64,000 nt of DNA from the sequence record OM386663.1; one strand, 5' to 3'. Position 1 is the stretch's first letter. The number at the start of each line of letters is the position of its first letter. Below, in pieces: positions 4,174 through 45,522 of this stretch. Origin of the DNA: Escherichia phage vB_EcoM_ESCO49. Under the pieces are notes generated by a model, which was not told the DNA's origin, made no database searches, and was given only the letters and a program-made list of their open reading frames with translations. Made by a program: the position numbers and the translations under genes.

Positions 4174-4192
4174 CTAAATAGCCTCTTAAAAT

Positions 4193-4270: not shown

Positions 4271-4271
4271 A

Positions 4272-4518: not shown

Positions 4519-4524
4519 ATTATT

Positions 4525-4599: not shown

Positions 4600-4605
4600 A
4601 CTAAT

Positions 4606-4681: not shown

Positions 4682-4687
4682 AATGTT

Positions 4688-4763: not shown

Positions 4764-4770
4764 ATTAATT

Positions 4771-4847
4771 TGGTACACCTAGAGAGATTCGAACTCACAC
4801 TGAGCAGATTCTAAGTCTGCTGCCTCTACCAGTTGGGCTATAGGTGC
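4771..4847 (-). tRNA. tRNA with anticodon UAG (Leu by anticodon; short variable arm)
   Basis: CCA encoded; T-arm GAGAG/ATTCGAA/CTCAC; perfect anticodon stem GCAGA/TCTGC, loop CUUAGAA; canonical D-loop AACUGGUAG; 5-nt variable region. Confidence 0.6.
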
Positions 4848-5102
4848 ATTAAACCTTTTTAGAGAACTTCTAAGAACCTAAGCAACAAGGTTCCACAACA
4901 AGCCGTAATAACCTTAGAAGCCCTCTAAAAAGACCTAAAAAGGTCTTTGCATAGTCTTGTTTAATCCGGTGACTAGAACCTTTGGAGAGCTTGATATTAT
5001 CTCTTCTCCGTGACACCTGCTAGGTGCTTTATGAGTGTGTACGACAATACACGCGGGATACCAAAGCAACACCCTAATGAAGCTTGGCTTTAAATCTTAT
5101 TA

Positions 5103-5192
5103 GGCGGTAAGTAAAGGAGTCGAACCCTCACCGTATCTCTACAGTGGCAACTGTTTTCAAGACAGTTTGGCTACCATTAGCCGCTACCTACC
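5103..5192 (-). tRNA. tRNA-Ser (anticodon UGA), type II
   Basis: Acceptor GGUAGGU/ACUUACC; 3-bp D-stem; perfect anticodon stem ACUGU/ACAGU, loop CUUGAAA; about 20-nt variable arm; T-loop UUCGACU; 3' end CC without the final A. Confidence 0.65.
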
Positions 5193-5205
5193 CCTAATAA
5201 GACTT

Positions 5206-5288
5206 TGGCATGGGACGGAGGAGTTGAACCCCTTTGAAACGGTGTTGGAAGCCGTTGCTCATGCCTTAGAGTCTTAACATCGTCCCAT
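5206..5288 (-). tRNA. tRNA, probably Trp (anticodon CCA), 80 nt with enlarged D region
   Basis: CCA encoded; perfect acceptor (5210-5216 with 5282-5288); T-loop AGTTGAA; best anticodon loop UUCCAAC; D region is about 7 nt longer than canonical. Confidence 0.45.
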
Positions 5289-5431
5289 ACTATAATTCGA
5301 AGCTTACCGTATTATCTCAACACTGTAAAGCCCCTTCTCAGATTATTTACATGTTCTGGAAAACATGAGATACAGACCACCTCCCTACAGGAAGACCCGC
5401 TTAGGTCGTCTAAGTAATCTGCTAACTAAAT

Positions 5432-5518
5432 TGGTCGAGGCGGCAGGACTCGAACCCGCATACTCCACTTACTCGGTTAACGTCTGTTTAGAAGACAGAT
5501 GAGATACGCCCCGTAATT
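5432..5518 (-). tRNA. atypical tRNA-like gene (anticodon-type loop UCU; canonical D-arm not foldable)
   Basis: CCA encoded; good acceptor CGGGGCG/CGCCUCG and T-arm GCGGG/UUCGAGU/CCUGC; perfect hairpin UCUGU/ACAGA with loop CUUCUAA; only 7 nt where the D-arm should be and 23 nt between that hairpin and the T-arm. Confidence 0.4.
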
Positions 5519-5850
5519 ATCTTTAAAGACTCTCTTAGAAAGCCCTTAAAGATGCCCACCTTATTAATCATACCGTGGGCTAGTACGCCAAATTCTTTGA
5601 TGAGGGATTGGAAGACCTCACTGGTGTTTAGCCTATCAAGCTACTGCCAGAAAAACATTGTCGTTTGCATTTATTTTAAATTTGCAAAATAGACGCTACG
5701 CAACGAAAACTATTCAGAATATGTACAACAAATTTCCCCACATTGTGTTACGTCTAACGCTCATGTATTGGTGTTTGAATTATACATATTATGAAGTATT
5801 TTAGTTACTATAAAGTGGTCACATCTCAATGTCAACAACTTTATTGAAAT

Positions 5851-5926
5851 TGGTACTGGTAGGTGGAATCGAACCACCGACGTTCCCTTATCAGGGGAGT
5901 GTTATAACCTTCTTAACTATACCAGC
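5851..5926 (-). tRNA. tRNA-Ile (anticodon GAU)
   Basis: CCA encoded; perfect T-arm GGTGG/AATCGAA/CCACC; acceptor with G1-U72; anticodon loop CUGAUAA. Confidence 0.65.
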
Positions 5927-5927
5927 T

Positions 5928-6004
5928 TGGAGGTTCAGATGGGAATCGAACCCACATTCATAGGGCTTATGAGACCCTTGCATTACCTTATCTGCGACTG
6001 AACC
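5928..6004 (-). tRNA. tRNA-Met (anticodon CAU; elongator-type, or Ile2 if lysidinylated)
   Basis: CCA encoded; perfect acceptor (5932-5938 with 5998-6004); T-loop AATCGAA; anticodon stem AGGGU/GCCCU, loop CUCAUAA. Confidence 0.65.
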
Positions 6005-6008
6005 ATTT

Positions 6009-6084
6009 TGGTAGAAGTGGAGGGACTCGAACCCATCGCCTGTCAGATTAAAAGTCTGCCACATCACTATTCTGCTACACTTCC
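6009..6084 (-). tRNA. tRNA-Lys (anticodon UUU)
   Basis: CCA encoded; T-loop ACTCGAA; acceptor with G1-U72; anticodon loop CUUUUAA. Confidence 0.6.
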
Positions 6085-6278
6085 ATTAAATTATCTTTGT
6101 AGATAAGCTACCCAGACTTGCTTAAGGTCTGTAGCGATGTGACTTTTTGGGTTTAAATCTAGAATTTACCCTTTCACCCTTTGTGGTCGCATACTCACAG
6201 GTAAGCTTAATAACTTATCTACAAAGATAATTACCAGACCATTGTTTATCATCTTAACTAGATATCTCATAAAGTGTT

Positions 6279-6366
6279 TGGTGTGCCGTGTAGGAGTCGA
6301 ACCTACCGAGTCTCAATGACAAGGGATTTACAGTCCCCACCGCTACCATCTACGGGATAACGACAC
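6279..6366 (-). tRNA. tRNA-Tyr (anticodon GUA), type II
   Basis: CCA encoded; perfect T-arm GTAGG/AGTCGAA/CCTAC; 3-bp D-stem; anticodon stem GGGGA/UCCCU, loop CUGUAAA; about 15-nt variable arm. Confidence 0.6.
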
Positions 6367-6435
6367 ATCTAATTTCTATTCAGGCTAAGGACTTGCACCT
6401 TACAAATCGGTGAGTAATCGCTTCTCTCCTAAATT

Positions 6436-6512
6436 TGGCGGTTAGTCAGGGATTCGAACCCTGTGCCATTCGCTTAACAGGCGACCGCACATACCTTATG
6501 TGCTTCCTAACC
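6436..6512 (-). tRNA. tRNA-Asn (anticodon GUU)
   Basis: CCA encoded; perfect T-arm CAGGG/ATTCGAA/CCCTG; acceptor 6 bp; anticodon stem UCGC/GCGA, loop CUGUUAA. Confidence 0.6.
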
Positions 6513-6597
6513 ATGTTTAGTATTACCAGACCGTATCTTTCAATTTTTTCTGCTAAAAATTTAATAAATATTGCTGTAAACGGTCTTCTGTAAAATT

Positions 6598-6674
6598 TGG
6601 AGGCGGGTGCAGGAGTCGAACCTGCCGATACCATGCTAATGAGACATGTGAGACGCCCTTTCTCTATACCCGCA
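6598..6674 (-). tRNA. second CAU-anticodon tRNA (Met, fMet or Ile2)
   Basis: CCA encoded; perfect T-arm GCAGG/AGTCGAA/CCTGC; acceptor 6 bp with 1:72 unpaired; anticodon stem CAUGU/GCAUG, loop CUCAUUA. Confidence 0.6.
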
Positions 6675-6804
6675 ATTCTTAATGACCAGACCAAATCTCT
6701 TCTTTGTCCGATTTACCTTCAGATGAATAAGATTAAGTTTGCTGTAATTGGTCTTCTGTCAAAACTGGCGTTCCAGAAGGGATTTGTCTACTGGAACATT
6801 AATT

Positions 6805-6881
6805 TGGTCTCTGTTGGAGGACTTGAACCTCCGGCCTTACCGCCCCAAACGGAACGCTCTACCAAGCTGAGCTAAACAGAG
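6805..6881 (-). tRNA. tRNA-Pro (anticodon UGG)
   Basis: CCA encoded; perfect acceptor (6809-6815 with 6875-6881); perfect T-arm GGAGG/ACTTGAA/CCTCC; anticodon loop UUUGGGG. Confidence 0.65.
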
Positions 6882-7045: not shown

Positions 7046-8461
7046 TTACCAGATATAACGGTCAATCATTACTGCTTTGAGCATTACGCTGATTGGGTCA
7101 AACTTCTCACCACCAAGCAGAGCTTTTAAAGTAGCTGGAGAGAAACCAGATACCATTGCTACACCGTTATCCTTAACAGATACTTCGCAAGTACCATTAC
7201 GGTTTGCTAAGTACCAGAATACCAGTTGTGGCATCTCATATCCAGCTTTTTTGTACTTACTCTGAATTTCTTCAAAGTTTGTACGACCGTTAGCTCCATC
7301 AACCTGATTGAACTCCATATCGGAGAATATGATAAGCTTACTTGGCATATCTTTCTGAGTCAAGTTATTTCTTTTACCTGTCTCAAGAATGCGGTCAAAA
7401 GCTGCTTGTAAGTTAGTTGAGCCATATTCAACGTGTCGCATCACCTGACGATGACGGTTTTGTAAATCACCACTCAGTTCGATGAAGTGAGGGTTTGTTG
7501 AATAAACCATCAACTCATTCTTAAAGCAACCTGTATTACGTTCTGCTACATACAAGGCAAGTGATACACCAATATCAAGAGCAGTAATTGAACCAAAATT
7601 CACCCAAGACATTGAGCCTGAAACATCAGACATACATAAGATGTTTTCACCTTCTGCCATCCAGTTTGGTAGTGCCTTCCACTGCTCATTAGCAACATCT
7701 GCATCACCATACTTAACAGATTTAATCACATCATATGGGTAAACAGCACCAGCATTAATCTTAGCCTCACCCTTTGATAAGGACTCTATGTAGGCTTTGT
7801 AGCGTTCTCCATCCTTACGGTTAAACAGCTTTTGGTAACGTGCAGCAGCAAGTGAAGGAATCTTACTGTAGTCAATCTTACCAAACTCGTTAGCAGAGAT
7901 TTTTTGCTCAACTGTATCAGAGAGTGCAGACAACAGTGTGCGGTACTCTTTCTCACTCAAGTTGGCAAACTTGCAGAAACGTTTTACAAACTGCTTATGA
8001 CGTGGTTTGACTCGTGGTAACCACTTGGCTGCCAAACCTGCTGTTGCAGGGTCTAGTAATGCTGCTTCTAAATGCTTGAAGGTATCTGTCTCAAAACGAG
8101 TACCTACGAAGATTTTGAAGTCATCAAAACGACCAAGTTCTGCAATCTTATCCATAATGCGAAGAACCTGTGTAGGCTCTAAAACTTTATCTTCAATCGC
8201 TTGAAGCAAAACAGTTCTGAAGGCTTTACGCTCACCCATACCTTCTCGTACATCTCGCATATGAAGCAAAATACGAACTGCAACATCAACATCCTCACGC
8301 AAAGCTTTGTAGAACAGGTCTGGTAAGAATTCTACATTGCTACGGCTTGAACCAGCAGCTTTGTAAAAGTCTACAAGAGCAGACATTGATGAAGTATGGT
8401 TTACAGCACCATTTTCAGTTCGACCTGCATGAAGGTGCGCATGTTTAAATAACTCGCTCAT
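7046..8461 (-). CDS. vWA-domain protein with MIDAS motif (possibly TROVE/Ro60-like)
   Basis: 471 aa; DxSGS MIDAS motif in ILCMSDVSGSMSW and a second vWA strand LIIFSDMEF; N-terminal about 270-aa helical domain; sits next to the tRNA cluster. The TROVE assignment is recalled architecture, not an alignment. Confidence 0.5.
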   Translation of the reverse strand: MSELFKHAHLHAGRTENGAVNHTSSMSALVDFYKAAGSSRSNVEFLPDLFYKALREDVDVAVRILLHMRDVREGMGERKAFRTVLLQAIEDKVLEPTQVLRIMDKIAELGRFDDFKIFVGTRFETDTFKHLEAALLDPATAGLAAKWLPRVKPRHKQFVKRFCKFANLSEKEYRTLLSALSDTVEQKISANEFGKIDYSKIPSLAAARYQKLFNRKDGERYKAYIESLSKGEAKINAGAVYPYDVIKSVKYGDADVANEQWKALPNWMAEGENILCMSDVSGSMSWVNFGSITALDIGVSLALYVAERNTGCFKNELMVYSTNPHFIELSGDLQNRHRQVMRHVEYGSTNLQAAFDRILETGKRNNLTQKDMPSKLIIFSDMEFNQVDGANGRTNFEEIQSKYKKAGYEMPQLVFWYLANRNGTCEVSVKDNGVAMVSGFSPATLKALLGGEKFDPISVMLKAVMIDRYIW

Positions 8462-8914: not shown

Positions 8915-8954
8915 TGGTATGCCTCTTATAAGACCTCTTAAAAGGCTTTTAAGA

Positions 8955-8990
8955 TAAAAGATAGATATCCAGAAAGATATCTATTTAAAT
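8955..8990. promoter_or_regulatory. palindromic operator-like site in a divergent intergenic region
   Basis: Inverted repeat TAGATATC-N6-GATATCTA between the divergent genes ending at 8914 (minus) and starting at 9164 (plus). Confidence 0.3.
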
Positions 8991-9163
8991 AGCCTTTTTA
9001 GAGGAACCTTTTAAGTTATCTTCTAAGTATTTATAAGCCTATACCTTGTCAAGTGCTTTGTCAACAACTTTTTTAACTTGCAATAGTTCTTGACTTGTTG
9101 TATGGATTACTGTACCATCTTACTTAAAGCTGTAGGTCTGCCTTGTTCTACAAAGGAGACTTA

Positions 9164-16889: not shown

Positions 16890-18480
16890 ATTACGAAATT
16901 TATAATTTTTATAAAATTTTATCGGTTGTCCCAACCTCTGGGTCACCATCATACGTGAATAAAATATCTATCCTTCTTAACAACCTTCTTAATCTTACTC
17001 TCTATATAGTTATATAGTACTATATAGTATCTTAGTAACTATCTAGTGGTCTTAATAGCCTCTCTGTATAACCCTTCTAACAAGCCTTCTAACAAGCCCT
17101 CTAAACACTCTTCTAACAAGCCTTCTTAATAACCTATACAATCACCTTAACCATCCCTCTATACCCTCTTAGAAGCTCCTATACACCTCTTAATCTCTAT
17201 GTTACCTATGATACCCTCTATAGGTGTTCACTAGGCACTACTAAGCCTCTATATAGACTGTTTTAACAAACTTAACAGGAATATCTTTACAGACCTTATC
17301 TCACAAGGCCTAACACGGTACTAACAAGGTATCTTATAAACCTGTTTATGCCTGTATTTTAGAAAGACTGTATAGGTAATTATTCAGAATTTTAATTTTT
17401 TTTATAAAATAGGACTGTCAAGTCATTTTTTAGGGTCTTTGAAGGAACTCAAAAATATCTGTCTAGGATGTATATCTGCTTGGTAGCCCTTAACAGCCCT
17501 GTAACATCCCCTTTGCAAAATTTTAAAATATCATTAACAAACTCTTAACAACTCTCTCAAGCTCTTAACATCTCTCCAAAGGTCTTAACAAATTCTTAAT
17601 AGTTTTAACAAGAGGGTAACAAATTTCTAACAAGTGCTGAAAAGGCTTTACAGAATCTTAACAGATGATTAACAAGAGCTAACAAGTTAATTTTTAAGGG
17701 TTATTTTGTTAAGATAATTAACAAGTTCCTAACAAGTATTTAACCTTTTTAACAAGCTATTAACATGGTCACTACTCTTTTCTTATCGTTCCCTTTCTCT
17801 CTTAGTGATTCTCTAAACATACCTTTTAAAAGCTCTCTATAGCTCCTTGTAAGCTCTTTTAAGCCTCTTCCTAGTAATTACACCCCAACTATACAGACAC
17901 CTCTTTATAGAGCTTTACAGGAGCTTTTAAGGCTATGTCAAAGACTCTTACAAGGCTTTTACATGGTATTAACAGAGATTTAACAAGGGGCTAACAAGTT
18001 GCTAACAAGCATAACTATGTAGGGATTGTTAAGAATTTGTTAAAAAGATGTTAAAGGGGCTAGCATTTACGTAACTTTTACGTAACTTTTGAGTAACTTT
18101 ATAGCCCCTATAACATACTTTTAAGACACTATCAAGCCCTTTTTAGTAGTTCACGAGATACTAGTCAGCCTATAAGCTTATACCCTTATAAGGTTCTTTT
18201 AAGCCTCTAGAAAGCTTTATAAAGGGCTTTTAAGGGTGAGGTAATGCAATCCCTTAAGTTATATTGATAAGGCTGTTATAGGGCTTTATAGGGCGTTTTA
18301 GGGGTTGCCCTTCCCTTTCGGGTTATGGGCTTGTATTTAAGGGAAAGATTAGTTGATTTGATAAAAGGCTATAGAATAAGCTATAGAGTTATTGCTTTTT
18401 AAGGTATGGGATAGAGTCTATCGAACCAGTGGGGAGATTCTGGAAAGGTGAGGGAAAGGGTTGTATAAGGATTCGATAGA
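16890..18480. repeat. ORF-free region dense in short direct repeats (TAACAAG/TAACAG family and a triplicated ACGTAACTTTT)
   Basis: About 1.6 kb with no ORF over 60 aa on either strand; more than 25 copies of (C/T)TAACA(A/G)G, mostly in one orientation (for example CTAACAAGCC three times within 17060-17110, clustered copies 17540-17790 and 17960-18010); TACGTAACTTTT repeated around 18070-18105. Confidence 0.6.
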
Positions 18481-18912: not shown

Positions 18913-19405
18913 TATCTTTTAAAGTTTTTTCTAAGTTCTTGATATTGAAAGATAAGCCCTCTCCCAATGTCTTAGAGTAAACATCAGGGCGCAAGTCATG
19001 CAGTTCGATTTCTTCCACTTCAAAGAGACTAACCAGTTCACCGCTTACATTGTAAGCCATTGAAACAGTATTTACAGGGGCTTTGTAAAACTTGTTCAAC
19101 GACTTGATAGACCGTTCATAAGCCATTTTATAACCGTTTAAAAGGTTTTTAACGTGATTGCGAACGTTTTTACACTCATCTAAGTAAATCCCTAAGAATA
19201 ACGGCAATAACTCCGCTATAGCTTGCATAAAGTGAGAGACCACAACGGTTGCAACATTACGACGATGAACGTAATAAGCCCCTTTTCCTGATTTAGTGAT
19301 AGTTGCAAAGTGTACACCATTGCAGCGAAATTCGTAGGTATCTTTAACAGGTTTAGACATTACAGCATTTGAACGAATGAAGTTGATAGCTTTGAACTTG
19401 TTCAT
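18875..19405 (-). CDS. hypothetical protein (array gene 2)
   Basis: Track ORF 18875..19447 trimmed to the ATG at 19405 that follows the conserved leader GGAGATTCAAAATG. Confidence 0.5.
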   Translation of the reverse strand: MNKFKAINFIRSNAVMSKPVKDTYEFRCNGVHFATITKSGKGAYYVHRRNVATVVVSHFMQAIAELLPLFLGIYLDECKNVRNHVKNLLNGYKMAYERSIKSLNKFYKAPVNTVSMAYNVSGELVSLFEVEEIELHDLRPDVYSKTLGEGLSFNIKNLEKTLKDIEKDIDDTIKNL

Positions 19406-19470
19406 TTTGAATCTCCAGTTTAGGACTTTATTTAGCGGGGAGGTCATCCCTCCCGTTGATTAGTACTTTA
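19406..19470 (-). promoter_or_regulatory. type A cassette (5'UTR hairpin plus RBS)
   Basis: Conserved TTTGAATCTCCAGTTTAGG...GGGGAGGTCATCCCTCCC on the plus strand. Confidence 0.45.
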
Positions 19471-19621
19471 CTTGTTTTGATAGCTGATTGCAAGCAATTT
19501 TTTAAGTTTATCTATAAAGAGTCTTTTAAGTGAATCCCTTTTAGATAAACCCCCTCGAACAAATCTACCAATGTCAAGGGGTGTTGTCAATACTTTTTGA
19601 AAGTTTTTTGTAAGTTATTGA

Positions 19622-19963
19622 TTAACTGATAAATATTTTTTCAGGCTTTACATAGCTGATACGTTGGATTTTTAGTAGGTCATTCCAGATTAATGCGGCA
19701 ATATGAGAATAGCCGGATTCACGTAGAAGCTTCATTGTTTTACTTCTTGTTTCAAATCGGTTTACGTAGTACTCACTATTTAAAACCGTTTTATTGCCTT
19801 CATTGTCCACATGGATAATCTGCATTACTTGAAAGGGGCTTACATCCTCGCCTTTATTCCATTGTTCAAAGTATTTTAGGCACTGCATAGGTGACATCTT
19901 ATCACTAACCTGCGTTGACCAAGATGCGCCAGCTTTATCAGCAATTACGGTTACATAAGCCAT
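19622..19963 (-). CDS. hypothetical protein (array gene 3)
   Basis: 113-aa ORF starting exactly at the conserved leader. Confidence 0.5.
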   Translation of the reverse strand: MAYVTVIADKAGASWSTQVSDKMSPMQCLKYFEQWNKGEDVSPFQVMQIIHVDNEGNKTVLNSEYYVNRFETRSKTMKLLRESGYSHIAALIWNDLLKIQRISYVKPEKIFIS

Positions 19964-20045
19964 TTTTGAATCTCCAGTTTAGGGTTTTATTTAGTGGGGA
20001 GGTCATACCCTCCCCGTTGATTGACAATTTACAGATTTTTATCCG
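19964..20045 (-). promoter_or_regulatory. type A cassette
   Basis: Plus strand TTTTGAATCTCCAGTTTAGGGTTTTATTTAGTGGGGAGGTCATACCCTCCCCGTTGATTGACAATTTACAGATTTTTAT, near-identical to the copy at 18796-18912. Confidence 0.5.
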
Positions 20046-20051
20046 GCTTGT

Positions 20052-20285
20052 CTAGTCTTTTTCAATGATAATTTCATCTTGGCCGTCAACACTGTCAAAA
20101 TAGATTCCGTCGTCATCTTCTGTCTTAAAGTAGCATTTTATATCATCACTTGCGGGATAGTCTTGTCTTGCTATCTGGCAAACTTGAATAGCATTTTCTT
20201 TACTTCCTGAAAACTCCTCAAGCCCTTTAAAGTCGCATGAATACCCATTACAGGTGGAAAGGATGAGATAAACGGTTATAAGCAT
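20052..20285 (-). CDS. small Cys-rich protein with signal-peptide-like N-terminus (array gene 4)
   Basis: 77 aa; MLITVYLILSTCNG hydrophobic N-terminus, acidic C-terminal half. Confidence 0.4.
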   Translation of the reverse strand: MLITVYLILSTCNGYSCDFKGLEEFSGSKENAIQVCQIARQDYPASDDIKCYFKTEDDDGIYFDSVDGQDEIIIEKD

Positions 20286-20348
20286 GATTTAAGCCCCCTA
20301 AATGGCCCTGTACGGGCCTTAAGTTGGAAATTGGTGTCTTTGTATGGT

Positions 20349-20912
20349 TTAGCCTAAAAAGTCGCTCATATTGCGTTCTGTGAGGCTGTTGGTAATTTTG
20401 TCCAGTAGGTCACAATACACAGAGCTATCACCGCTATTCTGTACAATTTTTGCAATACTCAACAAATCATCGTCAATATAGCCCAAATTGCGGTTAGTTG
20501 TATCAGGTACAAAGAAAGGCGCATACATCGCACTAAAATTCGCGGAGTGGATACCAACAATCCAATTTTTATCAAAGTAACCTGTAAAGCTGGCGATGTC
20601 GCTCATATTGTCACAAGAATAATCGTCCTCAAGTTCTTCCTCTGGGATATCCATCTCAATTACAATCACTTCCTGCGTTTCCATTTGGAAAGCTGCCGTA
20701 ATAAGCCCCGACTCTAAAGCATTTTGAATGCAGCGTTCACGGATGTAAGAAGCTTCTTCATCTTCCAGGCATTCCGTTTTGATAATCTTATCCATCGGGT
20801 AAACGTAAAAACAATCATCCATGTAAGAGCAGTTCCAGATACCCTCCGGCTTGTCGCCACCTTTAAGCAGGTTTACAAAGTTTTTCAGAGTAGTGCCGTG
20901 ATAGCATTTCAT
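20349..20912 (-). CDS. hypothetical acidic protein (array gene 5)
   Basis: 187-aa ORF starting at the conserved leader. Confidence 0.5.
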   Translation of the reverse strand: MKCYHGTTLKNFVNLLKGGDKPEGIWNCSYMDDCFYVYPMDKIIKTECLEDEEASYIRERCIQNALESGLITAAFQMETQEVIVIEMDIPEEELEDDYSCDNMSDIASFTGYFDKNWIVGIHSANFSAMYAPFFVPDTTNRNLGYIDDDLLSIAKIVQNSGDSSVYCDLLDKITNSLTERNMSDFLG

Positions 20913-20997
20913 TTTTGAATCTCCAGTTTAGGATTTAGTGGTAAAGCTCTTTATCTGGGGCTTACTATATCGAACTATAAGCCCCTTGTAAAGTACT
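20913..20997 (-). promoter_or_regulatory. type B cassette: promoter embedded in a hairpin, plus RBS
   Basis: Minus-strand sense: TTTACA, 17 nt, TATAGT within hairpin GGGGCTTA-13 nt-TAAGCCCC, then ...ACCACTAAATCCTAAACTGGAGATTCAAAAATG. Confidence 0.5.
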
Positions 20998-21201
20998 TTA
21001 TTTGTTATTTTTTACAACTTTTAAAACTGCAAGATAGCCTAAGCAATAGGAATCACCAAAGAGAGTCCTACCCATGAAAGAATCTTCTTTAATATCCTTT
21101 GCAGTGACAGTTTTTTCTACGCCGTGGGAAAGGACTACATCACCAACTTTAATGTCTTTGATGTGTGTAGTTTCAATGGTTAAACCGTTAATAATAGCCA
21201 T
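20998..21201 (-). CDS. small hypothetical protein (array gene 6)
   Basis: 67-aa ORF starting at the conserved leader. Confidence 0.45.
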   Translation of the reverse strand: MAIINGLTIETTHIKDIKVGDVVLSHGVEKTVTAKDIKEDSFMGRTLFGDSYCLGYLAVLKVVKNNK

Positions 21202-21295
21202 TTTTGAATCTCCAGTTTAGGGTTTTATTTAGTGGGGAGGTCATACCCTCCCCGTTGATGTGTAATTTAATCTATCTAAAAACCAGTGTCAACAA
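21202..21295 (-). promoter_or_regulatory. type A cassette with clear TTGACA-17-TAAATT promoter
   Basis: Minus-strand sense: TTGACACTGGTTTTTAGATAGATTAAATTACACATCAACGGGGAGGGTATGACCTCCCC...GGAGATTCAAAAATG. Confidence 0.55.
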
Positions 21296-21300
21296 AATTT

Positions 21301-21705
21301 TTAGAGTTCTGCATAAATTGCATCACAGACATCACGAAAATCGTGATTTGTCAAATTACGCTGTAACCAAGTGGCGAAAAAATCAGCGATTGCATAATTG
21401 GCATCATACTCGACGGATAGCCATACTTTAACAGCAAATCGAAACATCTTTAAATCAAGCTCTTTATTCATTACCTTTGATTTGCCTAACATGTCGGACA
21501 TTTCATATTGTGCGCCGTCTAGCGTGATACCTGCTGCAACGTCAGCCAATGAACTTTTTACGTTTTTAACGTCTAAAATAACGCTTTGAATCTTTCCGAT
21601 AATGTTGTGCAATGTTTCATCTGGCGCTGCTGATGTCATCACATTAATCCGGTTGACGGTCAAACGTGCTTTTAAGATAGATAATTCACGGTTATTAATA
21701 GCCAT
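21301..21705 (-). CDS. hypothetical protein (array gene 7)
   Basis: 134-aa ORF starting at the conserved leader. Confidence 0.5.
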   Translation of the reverse strand: MAINNRELSILKARLTVNRINVMTSAAPDETLHNIIGKIQSVILDVKNVKSSLADVAAGITLDGAQYEMSDMLGKSKVMNKELDLKMFRFAVKVWLSVEYDANYAIADFFATWLQRNLTNHDFRDVCDAIYAEL

Positions 21706-21790
21706 TTTTGAATCTCCAATTTAGGATTTAGTGGTAAAGCTCTTTATCTGGGGCTTACTATATCGAACTATAAGCCCCTTGTAAAGTACT
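21706..21790 (-). promoter_or_regulatory. type B cassette
   Basis: Near-identical to 20913-20997. Confidence 0.5.
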
Positions 21791-22063
21791 TTAAACTAAA
21801 TGCAGCTTTTTGCCTTTTACCATGATGTAACTTGATGCGCTATTGCTACAAACATCCTGATAAATTCTGCGCAAACGCCCTTTATAGTGTACTTTCCAGC
21901 TGGTTGGAATCTTTTTACCGTATCCCGTAGCAGTTTTTTGGAATCCTGCAAGTTGCCAATTCAAAATATGCTGTTCAGCTTGTAAATCCTCAAAGTGCAT
22001 TATGCCGTTCACATAGTGGCGTAGGGTTACGTTTAAGGTGCGACCGTTGTTAGTAGTATACAT
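21791..22063 (-). CDS. hypothetical protein (array gene 8)
   Basis: Track ORF 21791..22126 trimmed to the ATG at 22063 after the leader GGAGATTCAAAAATG. Confidence 0.5.
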   Translation of the reverse strand: MYTTNNGRTLNVTLRHYVNGIMHFEDLQAEQHILNWQLAGFQKTATGYGKKIPTSWKVHYKGRLRRIYQDVCSNSASSYIMVKGKKLHLV

Positions 22064-22145
22064 TTTTGAATCTCCTAGTTTAAGGGTTTTATTTAGTGGG
22101 GGGTTATCGCCCCCGTTGATGTGCAATTTAATCTATCTAAAAACC
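22064..22145 (-). promoter_or_regulatory. type A cassette (variant hairpin GGGGGGTTATCGCCCCC)
   Basis: Same architecture as 21202-21295, with TTGACACTGGTTTTTAGATAGATTAAATTGCACATCAACGGGGGC. Confidence 0.5.
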
Positions 22146-22149
22146 AGTG

Positions 22150-22482
22150 TCAAGCATTTTGTTTTCGTTTGCTCATTTCTTGAGCAATTACAGCGTAGTA
22201 GTCTTTTAAGTCACTGGTATTTAAAGCATTTATCAGGGAATTATAATCATCAACTAACTGAAAATCATCTTTGAAGATGTCACTAATCTGGTATGTTCTC
22301 GCTTTAAATCTGAAGCTCATCTCTAGCCGCTTTATTTGCTCATCACTTAAACGCTCCAGGAAGCTCATTACAAGGCTATTATTAACCTGTTGTGTGATAG
22401 CCTTATCTGCTAAATTATAGGCTTTATATGCCTTATACAGCGCGAAAATGGCTATAATGGCGGTGACGCCGGTCATTAACAT
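22150..22482 (-). CDS. small membrane protein (array gene 9)
   Basis: 110 aa; N-terminal transmembrane helix LMTGVTAIIAIFALYKAY; its ATG overlaps the stop of a 26-codon upstream ORF. Confidence 0.5.
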   Translation of the reverse strand: MLMTGVTAIIAIFALYKAYKAYNLADKAITQQVNNSLVMSFLERLSDEQIKRLEMSFRFKARTYQISDIFKDDFQLVDDYNSLINALNTSDLKDYYAVIAQEMSKRKQNA

Positions 22483-22645
22483 GGTGTTTCCTCTTTGAAA
22501 TCAATTTTATTAAGTGACTTGCTTAGATTTTCACGGACCTTATTTGATAATTTCATTTTTTGAATCTCCAGTTTAGGATTTAGTGGTAAAGCTCTTTATC
22601 TGGGGCTATCTTATCAGCTTGATAACCCCGTGTAAAAAGGTCTAT

Positions 22646-23158
22646 TTAGTCCTTAAAGATATTCATCACTGAATCTTTTAATGCTTCCAATTGCTCCAGT
22701 ACTTCAGATTCTGCGCCTGAATTGCTCACTTCCTCTTTTAGTCTATCCTCTAAATCAACGCCGTCACTATAACACCAATCAAAAGCATAACCAAGATAAA
22801 AACTTTCTAAAACCGTTTTGCCGTTTACATCTACAACTTTCGCGGCAAGGATGTATTCTGAAGCCTCTAAATCTCTTTCTAGTTCTTCCTGTAAGCTGAC
22901 ATAAGCCTCTTTTGATGGATTTTCCCGGCCCTGTTTTGCATAGTCACTTGAAAGCTGTTTAAGGCTATAATTTAAAGGGATTGCATATTTAAAGGCATTA
23001 TGACGATAGTTGGGGTTTTTAATAGTCACGCCGCCTTGATGGTCGTCTGTAAACTCCCAATCAGCAAGATTATGGCTTGACTCGTAGCAGTTTACCGCTT
23101 CATAGATGATTGAAAATTTTTCTTTTACAACTTCAAAAGTAGCGTCTACAGTTTTCAT
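22646..23158 (-). CDS. hypothetical protein (array gene 10)
   Basis: 170-aa ORF starting at the conserved leader. Confidence 0.5.
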   Translation of the reverse strand: MKTVDATFEVVKEKFSIIYEAVNCYESSHNLADWEFTDDHQGGVTIKNPNYRHNAFKYAIPLNYSLKQLSSDYAKQGRENPSKEAYVSLQEELERDLEASEYILAAKVVDVNGKTVLESFYLGYAFDWCYSDGVDLEDRLKEEVSNSGAESEVLEQLEALKDSVMNIFKD

Positions 23159-23244
23159 TTTAGAATCTCCAGTTTAGGGGTTTAGTGATAAAGCTCTTTA
23201 TCTGGGGCTTACTATATCGAACTATAAGCCCCTTGTAAAGTACT
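23159..23244 (-). promoter_or_regulatory. type B cassette
   Basis: Near-identical to 20913-20997. Confidence 0.5.
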
Positions 23245-23628
23245 TTATTTGTTAATTTTGAAAATTGTCACATAGCCATCGCTCCCGATAATTTGAGATA
23301 CTCCAGCTTTTTCTACTGAATAGCCCATATTCTCAAGATGATAAACAGCATCATCATAACCATATGCGCCGCCCTGATAACGTCTCTTATCACATCTTAT
23401 CAGGTTTTTACCACGTCCTGCAAGTGCATTTAGTACGGCTTTTTCACTTGAAAGCGTACCATCTAACATTGTTGCCGTGTAGTGGTTGATTCTGTTCCCG
23501 TTAATATCATACTTAAAATTGAACGAGTGAACAACAACTATTTTATCGTTAAATTTTTCATCAAGCGCCTTCTCTAATACATTACGGAAATTTTCTTTAT
23601 TGATGAATTTAGGTGCACGATATGCCAT
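23245..23628 (-). CDS. hypothetical protein (array gene 11)
   Basis: 127-aa ORF starting at the conserved leader. Confidence 0.5.
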   Translation of the reverse strand: MAYRAPKFINKENFRNVLEKALDEKFNDKIVVVHSFNFKYDINGNRINHYTATMLDGTLSSEKAVLNALAGRGKNLIRCDKRRYQGGAYGYDDAVYHLENMGYSVEKAGVSQIIGSDGYVTIFKINK

Positions 23629-23716
23629 TTTTGAATCTCCTAGTTTAAGGTTGTTGATAAAGCTCTTTATCTGGGGCTTAAGATATCAACTTTTAAGCCC
23701 CTTGTAAAGTACTTTA
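23629..23716 (-). promoter_or_regulatory. type B cassette (variant)
   Basis: Hairpin GGGGCTTAAGATATCAACTTTTAAGCCCC within the same architecture. Confidence 0.45.
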
Positions 23717-23923
23717 TTAGATATCGTAGTAATAAACTGCTGTCTGTCTTATGTGCTTTCTTGTGTTTCTTGTAAGGTAGCAATTAGAGTTTATAGCCGT
23801 TTCTACATAATTGCAATAGTCAGACTCTGAAATTCTGGACCATGCGCCGCAAATTTGCATGTAAAAACGTTTTACATTTGTGTTAACGTTAGTTGTGACC
23901 ATCAATTCACGACCGTATAGCAT
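23717..23923 (-). CDS. small hypothetical protein (array gene 12)
   Basis: 68-aa ORF starting at the conserved leader. Confidence 0.45.
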   Translation of the reverse strand: MLYGRELMVTTNVNTNVKRFYMQICGAWSRISESDYCNYVETAINSNCYLTRNTRKHIRQTAVYYYDI

Positions 23924-24159
23924 TTTTAGATTCTCCTAGTTTAAGGCTATCGGGCTTATCGCCCTGTCTGATGCAAATACTAGATAACCCCGTTCAAATA
24001 GTCAATAAAATTTTTAAAAATATTTTTGGCAAAAATGTAATGAAACGGGTGCGCGCGAATACCACAAAACAGAACACAAATCAAGAATTATTTTTCAATC
24101 CGCTACAAATTTTTCTGTTGACTTTTCTTTTCGGATGTGGTAGCCTTGTGAGAAATGGC

Positions 24160-24370
24160 GACATCCCCACCTACACCCACCTACCTGCACAATTCTAAAA
24201 TGATTTTTCTTGCCCGACCTGATTTTTCTCTGCACGTTTTGAAAATGAAAAAGCTCTTTGGAGATTACCTGCACAGTTTGAAAATGAATTTTCTCTTTGG
24301 AGTTCAAGATTTTCTCTACAGATTTCTCTATAGAAATATACCTGCACAATTCTGAAATGAAAAAGCCCTC
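24160..24370. repeat. three direct repeats of about 22 bp, ACCTGCACA(A/G)TT(C/T)(T/G)AAAATGA
   Basis: Copies at about 24184-24205, 24271-24292 and 24342-24363 in an intergenic region; track ORFs here are repeat artefacts. Confidence 0.5.
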
Positions 24371-24434
24371 CTTACCTGAAAAAATCTACCAGATAAGAAA
24401 GGCTTAGTCTATTGTGAATATTATACAGAGTTTC

Positions 24435-25220
24435 TTAGTTCTTTGCGTCTAAGAAGGTTACTTCCGGTGAAGAGAAGACCGTCTCAATATCCTCATCAGT
24501 TCTTGCATAGATGTATGTATCTGCATCACTGCCAAATGTTACAGCTATCCTGTGATTGCTCTTCGACAGGTGGGTAACTAGAGCGTTACTTAGAGACATC
24601 TTTTCAACCGGAGGGTTACTTTGATGTATCTTACCTTTTCTTCGTCTGAAGAGGGTAACTGTATTGTCCGTGAACACAACTACACCTGCAAAGTATTCTG
24701 GTTCACAGTAGTTTTTCCAACCTGAGTGTAACTCGTTGTACATCTCTGTCTCGTAGACATACAGATAAACATCTACGCTCTTCATAACCTGATTGATGAT
24801 AACTGTGACAGCTTGAGGGTCCAGCCCACCGATACCTGCACCAATCATAGGTAGGCCAACCTTCTTCAACTGGTTAACTTCACAGTATCTGTTAAGTTGC
24901 TTCAAAGATGACTCTAAAGCACTGTATCGGGCGTCTTTACCAGTCTTAAGCTGAGTGTAAAGGTTAGCTATACGACCTTGTTTTAAACGTGCTACAGAGA
25001 AGTTACCCAGTAAATTTTCACAGGGTTTGTGGCCTATACCACCTGCATAGATGTAAACTTCTGTATCGGTCTCATATGCTTTTGGGTAAAGTTTAGAAAT
25101 CTTGTCAGCGATACCTGCACCCATTAAATTCATACAGTTGCAACCGTGACCAATGATGTCAAACTTACCTTTATCAAAGGCGTCAAAGATATCACCATTG
25201 ATGATTTTTACAATACCCAT
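24435..25220 (-). CDS. macro-domain protein (TARG1/DarG type, ADP-ribose binding or hydrolysing)
   Basis: 261 aa; N-terminal IINGDIFDAFDKGKFDIIGHGCNCMNLMGAGIADKISKLYP matches the NC..MGxGIA...YP pattern of TARG1/DarG-type macro domains (pattern recall, no alignment run). Confidence 0.5.
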   Translation of the reverse strand: MGIVKIINGDIFDAFDKGKFDIIGHGCNCMNLMGAGIADKISKLYPKAYETDTEVYIYAGGIGHKPCENLLGNFSVARLKQGRIANLYTQLKTGKDARYSALESSLKQLNRYCEVNQLKKVGLPMIGAGIGGLDPQAVTVIINQVMKSVDVYLYVYETEMYNELHSGWKNYCEPEYFAGVVVFTDNTVTLFRRRKGKIHQSNPPVEKMSLSNALVTHLSKSNHRIAVTFGSDADTYIYARTDEDIETVFSSPEVTFLDAKN

Positions 25221-28489: not shown

Positions 28490-28589
28490 TGGTTCTCCTG
28501 TTTAGTTTATCGTGACAACAATTATACAGCACTCTGCACAAAATACAAATAAAAAAGGCCGCCGAAGCAGCCTTTTAAGAAATTACTTA

Positions 28590-43287: not shown

Positions 43288-45522
43288 CTAAACACCACAA
43301 CCCTCGCAATAAGCATCTTGCAGTGCAGATTTACCTACACCAATGCGACTGTTAAGGTAGTACATGGTTTTCATACCTACCGAGTTGGCATAAATCATGT
43401 ACTTCAAAGCTTGAGCCAATGATACCTTCTTAGACTTTGCATAGTCAACATAGAAATCTGAAGAGATAGCTTGACCAGTGAACTTTTGAACAATTGCATA
43501 ACAATCAATCAGGTCAAAGGTGTCAATATCCCAAGCAATTTCATAAACATACTTCAACTCTTCATAATCTGGAACAATAAACAGCACGTTACCAGTTGCA
43601 GACTTTTTAGTTAAAATAAAGTCACGAATTGGGTACAAGCCATTTGTCGTATTAGTTGCTAGTGAAGAACTCTCATTAGGCATGTAAGCTTCTAATACAG
43701 AGTTTCGGATTCCACCATTTTCTTTGATACGTTGTGCTAAGTCATCCCAATCATATCGTAGTTTTGCATCATGCTTTTCATCAATCTTCTTGTTAGCTGT
43801 TTTTGGAGGAACCCAGCCTTCAGGATACTTAGTGAACTTCATGTACTCTGGAACACCACGCTCTCTAGCAAGTCTCAGAGAGGCTTCATGCAGATAGTAA
43901 GAGTGCATCTCTGCAAGTTCATGAAGCTTCGTCTTACCTGCTCGTGAAGAGTAGTTCACGTAGTTCTTCGCAAGGTAATGAGCCACATTTGTAAGGCCAA
44001 TCCCAACAGAACGACGCTTCTGTACATGGTTACGCATCGACGGATACGGATAATCCATAAGGTCAATAACGGAATCAACCATTGCAAGAGCATAATAAGC
44101 AACGTCAGCGTATTCATCTTCTGAAATTCTCCCTGCAACCAAACTAGCTAGGAAGCAAAGAGCCACCTCACCATCCTCTTTCACAGCATCGTCTCTGTAA
44201 AGGTCTGTCTCTTTCTCAAAACCATACACTGGCAACACAATTTCCATACAAAGATTTGACATCTTCAATGGCTCTTTAAATGGTGTATGTGTGTTCGCAT
44301 TGTTAGTGAAGAATGGATACACACGACCTGTAGCATAACGCTGTTGGATAAACAGCTTAGCAATTTCACGAGCCTTTACCCGTCTGTGCTTAACTCCTGA
44401 ATGTACTGCGTGACCAACTGCCATAGCAAACTCATCAGCAGATGCTGTGTAGAACATGTCATAGAGTTTTGGTGCATCTTTGTAAGAGAATAGCAACCAA
44501 TCTGTATCATACTGAACACACTGCCAGAAATAATCGTTTGTGCCGAAGGAGTAGTCCATCTCATTAATACGCTTAGAAGGAACCGTTGTAGGGTGCTTCA
44601 AACGCAGTAAATCTTCAATCTGCGGGTCTAGAGCAGTGTAGAAGTTATTAGCTGAACCACCACGGCTCTTCTGTTTGTTTGCCTCTACAGATGAACGTAC
44701 AAGCTTGTAATAAGGTAGTTTACCCATGTGCTCAATCGTATTTTGACGGATACCATCACCAATAGTGCGAGTCTCCATCAGCATACCGATACCAGCTTGC
44801 TTCGTAGTCATATCATAAGCAACCTTTGCAGCAATACCAAGTGATTCAGCAGTGTCATTCGCCTTAATCAAACAGCATGACGCATAACCTGATTTAGTTG
44901 CTCTTAAACCATTTAAATAAGGCGTAGGAGCGTTAATCTTCAGGTCAGATAGGTAAGTGTACAGCTTGATAACATCTTGTAACCTACGGTGCTTTGGTTG
45001 CTTCTCAAAGGCTTTCATAGCCATACCCATAAACATAAACTGTGGTGACTCAAAAAGTCTTCCAGTTTTAATATCACGGATACCATACTTGTCTCTGAAC
45101 TGTTTCAAGACTGCATAACCGTAAGAGATATCTTTTGAGTGTACGATGTAACCTTGCAGGTATTCAAGCTCTTCCTGTGAATAATCCATCTTCTCCCAAA
45201 GTCCTGCTCTCTCCATATTTTTAACGAAGGTAATCAGCGTAGGAACCTTAGTAAAGCCTCCAAAGGCTTCTTTGTAGATAATACCCAAAAGTAGCCGTCC
45301 AGCCATATCTGAGTATTCTTGAGTTTGTTTATCAACACAAACATCAATCATGGCTTGGTGCATCTCTTTTGTAGTGCAACCTTCATAGATACGTTTCATA
45401 GCTTCCATAGTGACTTCTGACCAGATAATTCCACGTTTATCTGCCCATGATGCCCACTTATTCAGTCTTTCTGGGTCAAAGCTTACTACTGTACCGTTTG
45501 ATTTTTTAATTGTCTTAATCAT
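43288..45522 (-). CDS. nrdA: ribonucleotide reductase class I alpha subunit
   Basis: 744 aa; ATP-cone-like N-terminus, active-site region NLCMEI, C-terminal CEGC redox pair. Confidence 0.85.
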   Translation of the reverse strand: MIKTIKKSNGTVVSFDPERLNKWASWADKRGIIWSEVTMEAMKRIYEGCTTKEMHQAMIDVCVDKQTQEYSDMAGRLLLGIIYKEAFGGFTKVPTLITFVKNMERAGLWEKMDYSQEELEYLQGYIVHSKDISYGYAVLKQFRDKYGIRDIKTGRLFESPQFMFMGMAMKAFEKQPKHRRLQDVIKLYTYLSDLKINAPTPYLNGLRATKSGYASCCLIKANDTAESLGIAAKVAYDMTTKQAGIGMLMETRTIGDGIRQNTIEHMGKLPYYKLVRSSVEANKQKSRGGSANNFYTALDPQIEDLLRLKHPTTVPSKRINEMDYSFGTNDYFWQCVQYDTDWLLFSYKDAPKLYDMFYTASADEFAMAVGHAVHSGVKHRRVKAREIAKLFIQQRYATGRVYPFFTNNANTHTPFKEPLKMSNLCMEIVLPVYGFEKETDLYRDDAVKEDGEVALCFLASLVAGRISEDEYADVAYYALAMVDSVIDLMDYPYPSMRNHVQKRRSVGIGLTNVAHYLAKNYVNYSSRAGKTKLHELAEMHSYYLHEASLRLARERGVPEYMKFTKYPEGWVPPKTANKKIDEKHDAKLRYDWDDLAQRIKENGGIRNSVLEAYMPNESSSLATNTTNGLYPIRDFILTKKSATGNVLFIVPDYEELKYVYEIAWDIDTFDLIDCYAIVQKFTGQAISSDFYVDYAKSKKVSLAQALKYMIYANSVGMKTMYYLNSRIGVGKSALQDAYCEGCGV

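What the first reader, a model, noticed from the sequence alone, without database searches (positions are those of the whole stretch)
24160..24370. Three spaced direct repeats between the small-gene array and the macro-domain gene
Three copies of ACCTGCACA(A/G)TT(C/T)(T/G)AAAATGA about 70-85 bp apart, each followed by similar AAAAGC/TTTTCTCT context. This looks like a tandemly duplicated regulatory unit or iteron set. The three overlapping track ORFs here are probably repeat artefacts.
Basis: seen in the sequence. Interest (0 to 1): 0.5.

Follow-up and report, generated by a model that had tools for sequence, protein, structure and literature searches.

The report
Four conserved protein-binding boxes in phage
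In this Felix O1-like phage genome, the three repeats belong to a unique four-copy array of a 23-bp two-part DNA box that is non-coding and kept across a whole phage subfamily, so it is most likely a docking site for an unidentified regulatory or replication protein.

Summary
The three copies lie at 24183-24203, 24267-24287 and 24340-24360 (0.04 expected by chance).

The window is a Felixounavirus genome and local genes are on the minus strand. Read in that sense, the unit is a 23-nt box, T-TCATTTy-N6-GTGCAGGTA. The array sits in a 511-nt non-coding region, after the intrinsic terminator of the macro-domain operon (24405-24363) and upstream of the sigma-70 promoter of the first small gene (24005-23977).

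A matrix built only from other genomes scores the four boxes at 31-34 bits. The next best site in 64 kb scores 17. The 22 kb of Felix O1 outside the window has none.

Arrays of three to five boxes follow the macro gene in five Ounavirinae lineages. The two half-boxes are 93-98% identical between genera, while the N6 spacer is at the neutral level (56%).

No overlapping ORF is conserved or shows codon periodicity. The array has no RNA structure and is not the terminal repeat (17480-18052).

A weaker fifth box overlaps a promoter 4.2 kb upstream.

Best reading: binding sites for an unidentified sequence-specific DNA-binding protein, probably a transcription regulator. Origin iterons are the main rival.

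The parts
24339..24361 (-). Box A (first in the direction of transcription): TTCATTTCAGAATTGTGCAGGTA. Its T-rich left half is also the U-tail of the preceding terminator. It overlaps a sigma-70-like TTTTCA-17-TATATT.
Evidence: Scores 33.5 bits with a matrix built from other genomes.
24266..24288 (-). Box B: TTCATTTTCAAACTGTGCAGGTA, with the A-type left flank GAAAAT.
Evidence: 34.2 bits.
24227..24249 (-). Box C: TTCATTTTCAAAACGTGCAGAGA.
   Evidence: 30.8 bits. It belongs to the repeat finder family D1. It is present in all related genomes.
24182..24204 (-). Box D: ATCATTTTAGAATTGTGCAGGTA, with the A-type left flank GAAAAA.
Evidence: 32.3 bits.
24363..24405 (-). Intrinsic terminator of the macro-domain operon: a 17-bp stem and 9-nt loop, followed by a U-tail that runs into box A.
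   Evidence: Folds at -24.9 kcal/mol with z = -5.6. It corresponds to terminator t13 of Felix O1 (PMC3185647 Table 2) and is annotated as a terminator in phage Tribble. The 5' arm differs between genera but still pairs with the 3' arm.
24305..24334 (-). Second motif: two direct copies of TCT(A/G)TAGAGAAA between boxes A and B. A related copy lies at 24116-24103.
   Evidence: In Mooglevirus-like genomes the same half-site forms an inverted repeat. In Hafnia phage Zyzzx it follows the last box instead.
24127..24181 (-). Hypervariable tract after box D. In this window it is G-rich in the gene sense (GGTAGGTGGGTGTAGGTGGGG...). Many relatives carry a polypyrimidine mirror repeat here instead.
   Evidence: Felix-versus-Moogle identity is only 0.45 here. 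The two alleles are visible.
24075..24126 (-). Conserved non-coding block AAAAGTCAACAGAAAAATTTGTAGCGGATTGAAAAATAATTCTTGATTTGTG.
   Evidence: Felix-versus-Moogle identity is 0.85. The AAAAGTCAAG part is also present in Hafnia phage Zyzzx.
23977..24040 (-). AT-rich upstream region plus the canonical sigma-70 promoter (TTGACT-17-TAGTAT) of the first small gene, whose ATG is at 23923.
   Evidence: Promoter scan. GC falls to 0.25 here. TTGAC and TAGTAT are invariant across genera.
28532..28554 (-). Isolated fifth box TTTTATTTGTATTTTGTGCAGAG. It lies directly after a terminator (28576-28553) and 7 nt upstream of a perfect TATAAT, at the head of the operon that ends just before the array.
   Evidence: (8.6 bits). 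The half-boxes and the TATAAT are conserved in Felix-like and Moogle-like genomes, while the spacer and the linker vary.

Best explanation
The repeats are a unique array of four operator-like DNA boxes. Each has two conserved halves, TCATTTy and GTGCAG(GTA), about one helical turn apart. All four point in the direction of transcription. They sit in the non-coding control region between the terminator of the macro-domain operon and the promoter of the first small early gene.

Shown:
- The region is non-coding.
- It has no stable RNA fold.
- The halves of each box are under strong purifying selection, while the spacer and the distances between boxes drift.

Inferred:
- Each box is bound by one unidentified sequence-specific DNA-binding protein. 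A phage-encoded protein is more likely, because no such array was found in enterobacterial chromosomes.
- That protein controls host RNA polymerase at terminator/promoter junctions. The fifth box overlaps the -35 and spacer of a real promoter at the head of the same operon. Box A overlaps a weak sigma-70-like promoter.
- The four-box cluster would then act as a cooperative, high-occupancy operator, or as a set of factor-dependent start sites. It would set the timing of transcription entering the small-gene region.
For: - The boxes are real and unique. A matrix built without the window scores them at 30.8-34.2 bits, against 17.1 for the next best site and 15.1 for the best shuffle. The 22 kb of Felix O1 that the window lacks has none.
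- Three to five boxes, in the same orientation, follow the macro gene in Felixounavirus, Mooglevirus, Kolesnikvirus, Hafnia phage Zyzzx and a distant contig.
- Erwinia phages match the 551-nt query only across the boxes.
- Felix-versus-Moogle identity is 0.93 for the left half and 0.98 for GTGCAG. It is 0.56 for the spacer and 0.57 for third codon positions of the macro gene.
- There is no conserved ORF and no codon periodicity.
- The array folds no better than shuffles (z = +0.9 and +1.75) and has no meaningful Rfam match (best E 0.57, all far below gathering scores).
- The fifth box lies between a terminator and a perfect TATAAT and shows the same conservation pattern.
- In Felix O1, RT-PCR of the ORF14 amplicon, which covers boxes B to D, peaks at 25 min, whereas the flanking ORF13 and ORF16 peak at 5 min (PMC3185647 Table 3 and supplement).
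Against: - No binding protein was identified. The ten neighbouring proteins have no DNA-binding Pfam domain.
- The fifth box was not found in the two Kolesnikvirus loci examined.
- The boxes lie 180-350 nt upstream of the next canonical promoter, which is far for a classical operator.
- A -10-like TAnnnT at a fixed distance from the box occurs only in Felixounavirus copies 1, 2 and 4.
- The RT-PCR evidence is an end-point assay, and the one-step kit with both primers present is presumably not strand-specific.
- Nothing here separates a transcriptional role from a replication role.
Confidence: 0.5

Rival explanations
1. The boxes are iterons of a phage replication origin. An unknown initiator binds the four direct repeats and opens the nearby AT-rich DNA. 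Alternatively, transcripts starting in the array prime the T7-like replisome, as at the T7 primary origin.
For: - The cluster is unique in the genome.
- It consists of four direct repeats of about 23 bp with a two-part conserved core.
- An AT-rich stretch with GC 0.25 lies about 140 nt downstream.
- A tract prone to unusual DNA structure lies next to it.
- Felix O1 has a T7-like primase-helicase and DNA polymerase, and no origin has been mapped (PMC3185647).
Against: - Cumulative GC skew shows no inflection near 24 kb and simply follows gene orientation.
- Box spacing is not phased with the helix and differs between genera: 73/39/45, 37/37/39 and 55/43/53 nt.
- No initiator gene is recognisable nearby.
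- By my own comparison with the consensus TTWTNCACA, the DnaA-box resemblance is only 5 of 8 here.
- The fifth box sits inside a promoter, which fits a transcription factor better.
Confidence: 0.2
2. The repeats are plain tandem sigma-70 promoters, or relics of duplicated terminator/promoter junctions. They would restart transcription after the terminator without needing any special factor, like the clustered early promoters of T7.
For: - Box A gives TTTTCA-17-TATATT.
- Felixounavirus copies 1, 2 and 4 have TAnnnT 3 nt after GTGC.
- The boxes follow a strong terminator and point the same way as the genes.
- Box A and the fifth box both begin in a terminator tail.
Against: - The invariant bases TCATTTT and GTGC are not the sigma-70 consensus.
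- The -10-like hexamers are not conserved in Mooglevirus, Kolesnikvirus or the distant contig.
- Scans in other genera find promoter-like matches in different registers and on different strands, at only 2-4 against 1.1-1.7 expected.
- The phage's other promoter-like sequences are canonical TTGACA types.
- A strong canonical promoter already serves the next gene.
- Relics would not keep four copies with 93-98% identical halves across genera.
Confidence: 0.15
3. The repeats act at the RNA level, as repeated binding sites in an unstructured leader or non-coding transcript for an RNA-binding protein.
For: - All boxes lie in the sense orientation.
- The region is transcribed in Felix O1.
- The array is unusually unstructured.
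Against: - A strong terminator lies directly upstream.
- There is no Rfam match and no covarying structure.
- The fifth box lies upstream of its promoter's -10 element, so it would not be transcribed from that promoter.
Confidence: 0.07
4. The repeats are a coding duplication inside a small protein gene, namely one of the overlapping 36-84 aa ORFs (ORF14 of the Felix O1 paper).
For: - A 50-aa ORF is open in all Felixounavirus genomes examined.
- Several records annotate small hypothetical proteins here.
- The ORF14 RT-PCR was positive.
Against: - Annotators chose different frames and boundaries.
- No ORF survives in Mooglevirus, Kolesnikvirus or Hafnia phage, although the boxes do.
- There is no excess of variation at third codon positions.
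- The 50-aa ORF starts at GTG inside box A, about 20 nt from the nearest Shine-Dalgarno-like sequence, which is too far.
- There are no family hits.
- RefSeq does not annotate ORF14.
Confidence: 0.03

Closest known systems
Iterons of plasmid and phage replication origins (lambda ori O-protein sites, P1 RepA, F RepE)
   Same: Four to five direct repeats of about 19-23 bp lie in a non-coding region near AT-rich DNA. They are unique in the replicon, and conservation is confined to the protein-contact bases.
   Different: No initiator gene is recognisable. Spacing is irregular and not conserved. There is no skew inflection. A fifth copy sits inside a promoter. All copies point in the direction of transcription. 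This comparison rests on my own knowledge of these systems.
T4 MotA boxes at middle promoters (sigma appropriation)
   Same: At the fifth copy, a phage-specific box occupies the -35 and spacer region upstream of a good sigma-70 -10 element. This is how MotA boxes replace the -35.
   Different: There are only five boxes per genome rather than dozens. Four of them lack a properly placed -10. No MotA or AsiA homologue is known in Felix O1 (PMC3185647). The sequence is unrelated.
T7 clustered early promoters A1-A3, and the T7 primary origin (tandem promoters 1.1A/1.1B plus an AT-rich region)
   Same: Tandem, co-oriented repeats of about 23 bp lie at the start of a transcription unit, with AT-rich DNA downstream. 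The replisome is T7-like.
   Different: The conserved bases do not match a known polymerase recognition sequence. No phage RNA polymerase is encoded.
Terminase recognition arrays (lambda cosB R sites, SPP1 pacL boxes)
   Same: Three to four short repeats with irregular spacing are bound by a small DNA-binding subunit.
   Different: The experimentally mapped terminal repeat of the relative UAB_Phi87 maps to 17480-18052, which is 6.1 kb away.
Non-coding repeat region of the phage T5 injection-stop signal
   Same: A repeat-rich non-coding block lies about 7-8% of the genome length from a terminal repeat. Small host-promoter-driven genes lie between it and the end.
   Different: Two-step DNA transfer has never been reported for Felix O1-like phages. 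The resemblance is positional only and is recalled from memory.

Membership tests
Iteron-type replication origin | Three or more direct repeats of 17-23 bp with conserved contact bases | tested here: met
   Four boxes score 30.8-34.2 bits, and their half-boxes are 93-98% conserved between genera.
Iteron-type replication origin | Adjacent AT-rich unwinding element | tested here: inconclusive
   GC falls to 0.25 at 23970-24029, about 140 nt downstream. That stretch is also the upstream element of a sigma-70 promoter.
Iteron-type replication origin | Cognate initiator gene, usually adjacent | tested here: not met
   The ten neighbouring proteins give no replication-initiator or DNA-binding Pfam hit. 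Their PHROG families are of unknown function, apart from 'phosphatase' for the macro protein.
Iteron-type replication origin | Strand-composition switch at the origin | tested here: not met
   Cumulative GC skew changes at about 9, 17 and 54 kb, where gene orientation flips, and not at 24 kb.
Iteron-type replication origin | Replication actually starts there | not testable with these tools
   This needs marker-frequency or nascent-strand mapping in infected cells.
Sigma-70 promoter | -35 and -10 hexamers 16-18 nt apart, conserved among relatives | tested here: not met
   Only box A passes the scan in this window. TAnnnT at a fixed offset occurs in 14 of 57 distinct units, all from Felixounavirus-type arrays plus copy 1 of two Mooglevirus-like genomes. 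Other genera give matches in other registers and on other strands, near the chance level.
Protein-coding tandem duplication | An open frame conserved among relatives, with a third-position excess of substitutions | tested here: not met
   No ORF is shared across genera. Variable sites by codon position are 12/16/11, 27/23/25, 23/22/25 and 6/11/10.
Structured non-coding RNA | A fold more stable than shuffled sequence, or a match to a curated family | tested here: not met
   z = +0.91 on the minus strand and +1.75 on the plus strand. The only Rfam hits are at chance level, far below the gathering scores.
CRISPR array | Near-identical repeats with regular spacing and unique spacers of similar length | tested here: not met
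   Spacing is 73, 39 and 45 nt. The repeats differ in their internal 6 nt, and the inter-box DNA is itself conserved.
Direct terminal repeat or packaging site | Coincides with, or adjoins, the physical genome ends | tested here: not met
   The 608-bp terminal repeat sequenced for UAB_Phi87 aligns to window 17480-18052 at 83% identity.
Intrinsic terminator (24405-24363 only) | Stable GC-containing hairpin followed by a U-run, at the end of an operon | tested here: met
   It folds at -24.9 kcal/mol with z = -5.6 and has a UUUUUCAUUU tail. It corresponds to Felix O1 t13.

The most novel reading that the evidence does not exclude
The four boxes, together with the adjacent tract prone to unusual DNA structure and the AT-rich DNA, are the so far unmapped replication origin of Felix O1-like phages. 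A new, unrecognised initiator would bind them. A still more remote reading is that they mark a T5-like boundary about 7-8% of the genome from the terminal repeat, separating the terminal cassette of small host-takeover genes from the rest of the genome.
Probability: 0.2. Interest if true: 0.65.

Novelty: new variant of a known kind. Interest (0 to 1): 0.5.

Why it matters
Felix O1 is a classic Salmonella typing phage, and its relatives are widely used for biocontrol and therapy. The genome paper states that it is not known how its transcription is temporally regulated, and no replication origin has been mapped.

A unique box array conserved across the subfamily, plus one copy inside a promoter, gives a concrete handle on this question. 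The box can be used as bait to identify the protein that binds it. It can also be mutated to test for effects on gene timing or on replication.

In practical terms, the small 'hypothetical proteins' annotated across this region in many GenBank records should be removed.

Tried and rejected
- **Terminal repeat or packaging site.** Several IMG/VR contigs end just beyond box D, which suggested a genome end. The published UAB_Phi87 terminal repeat maps 6 kb away. The contig ends are Nextera adapter junctions at a mirror repeat.
- **Coding.** Rejected.
- **Structured RNA or a known RNA family.** Rejected.
- **CRISPR.** The spacing is irregular.
- **GC-skew evidence for an origin.** None found.
- **General phage promoter class.** The motif is confined to this cluster, and the other intergenic regions carry canonical TTGACA-type promoter-like sequences.
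- **Host chromosomal counterpart.** A two-box pattern scan of 185,579 species' genomes gave 35 hits. None was labelled as an enterobacterium, and I did not inspect them further. The metagenome scan added only more Ounavirinae contigs and unrelated repeats.
- **Host-factor sites.** I compared the box by eye with sigma-54, sigma-E, CRP, FNR, MarA, IHF, Fur, OmpR, NtrC, LexA, RfaH ops and DnaA sites from memory. None fits all copies. The DnaA box matches 5 of 8 positions here and 7 of 8 in Erwinia phages. These are leads only, not tests.
- **Literature.** I found no transcript-start or RNA-seq data for Felixounavirus. The PhageMaP paper on Bas63 reports no intergenic data for this locus.
- **Candidate binder among neighbouring genes.** None recognisable.

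Full report
**Context**

The 551 nt around the finding match 292 phage records. Almost all are Felix O1-like phages (Ounavirinae), and the best match is 96% identical. The genes here lie on the minus strand:
- The macro-domain or 'phosphatase' gene is 24435-25220 (Pfam Macro).
- The next gene is a 68-aa small gene at 23717-23923.

The 511 nt between them hold no gene in the Felix O1 RefSeq annotation, where the corresponding gap is 7916-8422.

**The observation**

Shuffles give 0.04 on average. A fourth copy at 24227-24249 was missed.

On the gene-sense strand the common unit is T-TCATTTy-N6-GTGCAGGTA. I built a position matrix from 36 distinct units taken from other genomes, excluding the window. 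It scores the four boxes at 33.5, 34.2, 30.8 and 32.3 bits. The next best site in 64 kb scores 17.1, and the best score in 20 shuffles is 15.1.

Felix O1 has the same four boxes, at 7988, 8061, 8100 and 8145. The 22 kb of its genome that the window lacks contain nothing above 8.2 bits. The array is therefore unique in the genome.

**Anatomy, read in the direction of transcription**

1. A strong intrinsic terminator lies at 24405-24363 (-24.9 kcal/mol, z = -5.6). It is terminator t13 of the Felix O1 paper.
2. Its U-tail forms the left half of box A.
3. Two copies of a second motif, TCT(A/G)TAGAGAAA, follow (24334-24305).
4. Boxes B, C and D come next.
5. A hypervariable tract follows (24181-24127).
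6. Then comes a conserved block, AAAAGTCAAC...TTCTTGA (24126-24075).
7. An AT-rich stretch and the canonical promoter TTGACT-17-TAGTAT follow (24005-23977).
8. A conserved leader runs to the ATG at 23923.

**Conservation**

All 27 IMG/VR loci whose macro protein is at least 64% identical that reach the whole array carry four boxes, with start-to-start spacings of 72-77, 39-41 and 43-45 nt; a 28th, chimeric locus (L019) is cut off after box C. Other lineages also carry arrays:
- Erwinia phage phiEa104 (Kolesnikvirus) has four boxes at 37, 37 and 39 nt, ending in GTGCATAG.
- Hafnia phage Zyzzx has four, ending in GTGCTTATAA.
- A distant 88-kb contig, with about 40-58% amino-acid identity in neighbouring genes, has four to five.

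In every case the array follows the macro gene in the sense orientation. Genomes with a different macro variant carry three boxes. Erwinia phages align to the query only across the boxes. The Felix O1 paper notes that similarity to phiEa21-4 is otherwise confined to 27-46 and 61-86 kb.

Felix-versus-Moogle identity, by part:

| Part | Identity |
|---|---|
| Left half-box | 0.93 |
| GTGCAG | 0.98 |
| Internal 6-nt spacer | 0.56 |
| DNA between boxes | 0.70 |
| Macro gene, codon positions 1 / 2 / 3 | 0.74 / 0.80 / 0.57 |

Two near-invariant halves about one helical turn apart, a neutral spacer and drifting distances between boxes are what a two-part protein-binding site looks like.

**Not coding**

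- Four ORFs of 36-84 aa overlap the array.
- Annotators of Tribble, Meda and ULIM9 each called different ones.
- The Felix O1 paper called a 70-aa ORF14 at 8042-8254. RefSeq does not annotate it.
- No ORF is shared between genera.
- Among 22 distinct Felixounavirus sequences, variable sites are flat across codon positions.
- Pfam and PHROGs give nothing meaningful.

**Not structured RNA**

The array folds worse than shuffled sequence on both strands, with z = +0.91 and +1.75. Rfam gives only chance-level hits.

**Not the genome end**

Three IMG/VR contigs end or start about 45 nt beyond box D, which raised this possibility. Felix O1-like phages do have terminal repeats of 581-608 bp. However, the repeat sequenced for UAB_Phi87 aligns to window 17480-18052. 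That is 6.1 kb from the array.

**Promoter or operator?**

Box A matches TTTTCA-17-TATATT, and Felixounavirus copies 1, 2 and 4 have TAnnnT 3 nt after GTGC. This feature is absent in most other lineages. Scans there find matches in other registers or on the other strand, near the chance level. The phage's other intergenic regions carry canonical TTGACA-type promoter-like sequences. Resemblance to a sigma-70 promoter is therefore not the conserved property.

The isolated fifth box at 28554-28532 is informative. It begins in the tail of a terminator (28576-28553) and ends 7 nt before a perfect TATAAT. In Felix-like and Moogle-like genomes its two halves and the TATAAT are conserved, while the spacer and the linker vary. 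The box there overlaps the -35 and spacer of a real promoter. That promoter heads the operon (ORF3 to the macro gene) which ends at the terminator just before the array.

This favours a transcription factor, either a repressor or a factor that replaces -35 recognition.

Felix O1 RT-PCR showed the ORF14 amplicon, which spans boxes B to D, peaking at 25 min. The flanking ORF13 and ORF16 peaked at 5 min. This is weak evidence, and presumably not strand-specific, for separately timed transcription.

**Origin?**

In favour are the uniqueness of the cluster, its direct repeats, the nearby AT-rich DNA (GC 0.25) and the T7-like replisome with no known origin. Against are the lack of a skew inflection, the lack of helical phasing, the absence of a recognisable initiator, and the fifth box sitting in a promoter.

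**Verdict**

This is a real, unique, subfamily-conserved, non-coding array of protein-binding-type boxes. I found no description of it in the Felix O1 genome paper, which lists other direct repeats. I put the DNA-level binding-site reading at about 0.75 overall.

| Reading | Probability |
|---|---|
| Transcription control | about 0.5 |
| Origin iterons | about 0.2 |
| Plain tandem promoters or relics | about 0.15 |
| RNA-level sites | 0.07 |
| Coding | 0.03 |

Noticed in passing
window 17480-18052: This is the homologue (83% identity over 608 columns) of the experimentally sequenced 608-bp direct terminal repeat of Felixounavirus UAB_Phi87, so the physical genome ends fall here. The segment is packed with TTGTTAA/CTTAACA repeats, at 11 per 300 nt against 3 or fewer elsewhere in the window.
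   Followed up: partly
L012/L036 end, L014/L037 end, L040 start, L047/L051, and L052 (VpaE1_ev035) about 288-320 in gene sense. The equivalent window position is about 24127-24181.: Many relatives carry a perfect polypyrimidine mirror repeat, CCCCTCTCCCCCTC-TTA-CTCCCCCTCTCCCC, about 20 nt after box D. Independent assemblies break exactly at its centre. Nextera adapter is fused on both sides with a 9-nt overlap (CTCTTACTC), which is the footprint of a Tn5 insertion. GenBank record LR699048 carries an adapter scar (CTGTCTCTAGAGACAG) at the same site. This looks like an extreme tagmentation hotspot at DNA prone to triplex formation. The window has a different, G-rich allele here.
   Followed up: partly
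window 28532-28576 (minus strand): A terminator (Felix O1 t2) is followed at once by a fifth, weaker box and a perfect TATAAT. Box A and this site share the same layout: terminator tail, then 6-7 variable nt, then TGTGCAG. The Felix O1 terminator t5 also ends in CTTTTTCATTT.
   Followed up: partly
window 24305-24334 and 24103-24116; L025 about 3895-3925: The half-site AGAAATCTG occurs as direct repeats in Felix-like genomes. In Mooglevirus-like genomes it forms a 9-bp inverted repeat (AGAACTCTG-GA-CAGATTTCT). In Hafnia phage Zyzzx it follows the last box rather than the first. This may be a second protein-binding motif.
   Followed up: no
window 19400-24000 (minus strand): The small genes form cassettes with nearly identical leaders (CCTAAACTGGAGATTCAAAAATG). 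Their hairpins double as TTTACA-17-TATAGT promoter-like sequences. These correspond to the 57-bp and 39-bp direct repeats listed in the Felix O1 paper.
   Followed up: no
window 24363-24379: The 3' arm of the terminator (CAGGTAAGGAGGGC) is invariant between genera, while the 5' arm changes and still pairs with it. The arm contains GGTAAG, which I recall as the E. coli BREX recognition site, and a strong Shine-Dalgarno-like AAGGAGG with no start codon at a usable distance.
   Followed up: no
L019 4008-4198 (IMG/VR contig 3300045988_004180, 3' end): Phage sequence stops just after box C. It continues as E. coli mukE/mukB DNA at 100% identity, so this contig end is a phage-host chimera. The other end of the same contig starts at the mirror-repeat adapter junction.
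   Followed up: yes
window 45518-45540 (+ strand): This is the only other site scoring above the shuffle maximum (17.1 bits, AATCATTTTCGAATCCTACAGATG). It lacks GTGC and is probably a chance match.
   Followed up: no
window 8915-9142 and 54342-54568: Two divergent intergenic regions carry paired TTGACA...CTTGACAAGG promoter-like elements and many CTTAAAAG/CTTTTAAG repeats. The same short repeat also flanks the terminal-repeat region.
   Followed up: no
window 2526-6881 (minus strand): A cluster of 19 tRNA genes, including two tRNA-Met, three tRNA-Leu and two each of Ser and Lys. This is typical of Felix O1-like phages.
   Followed up: no
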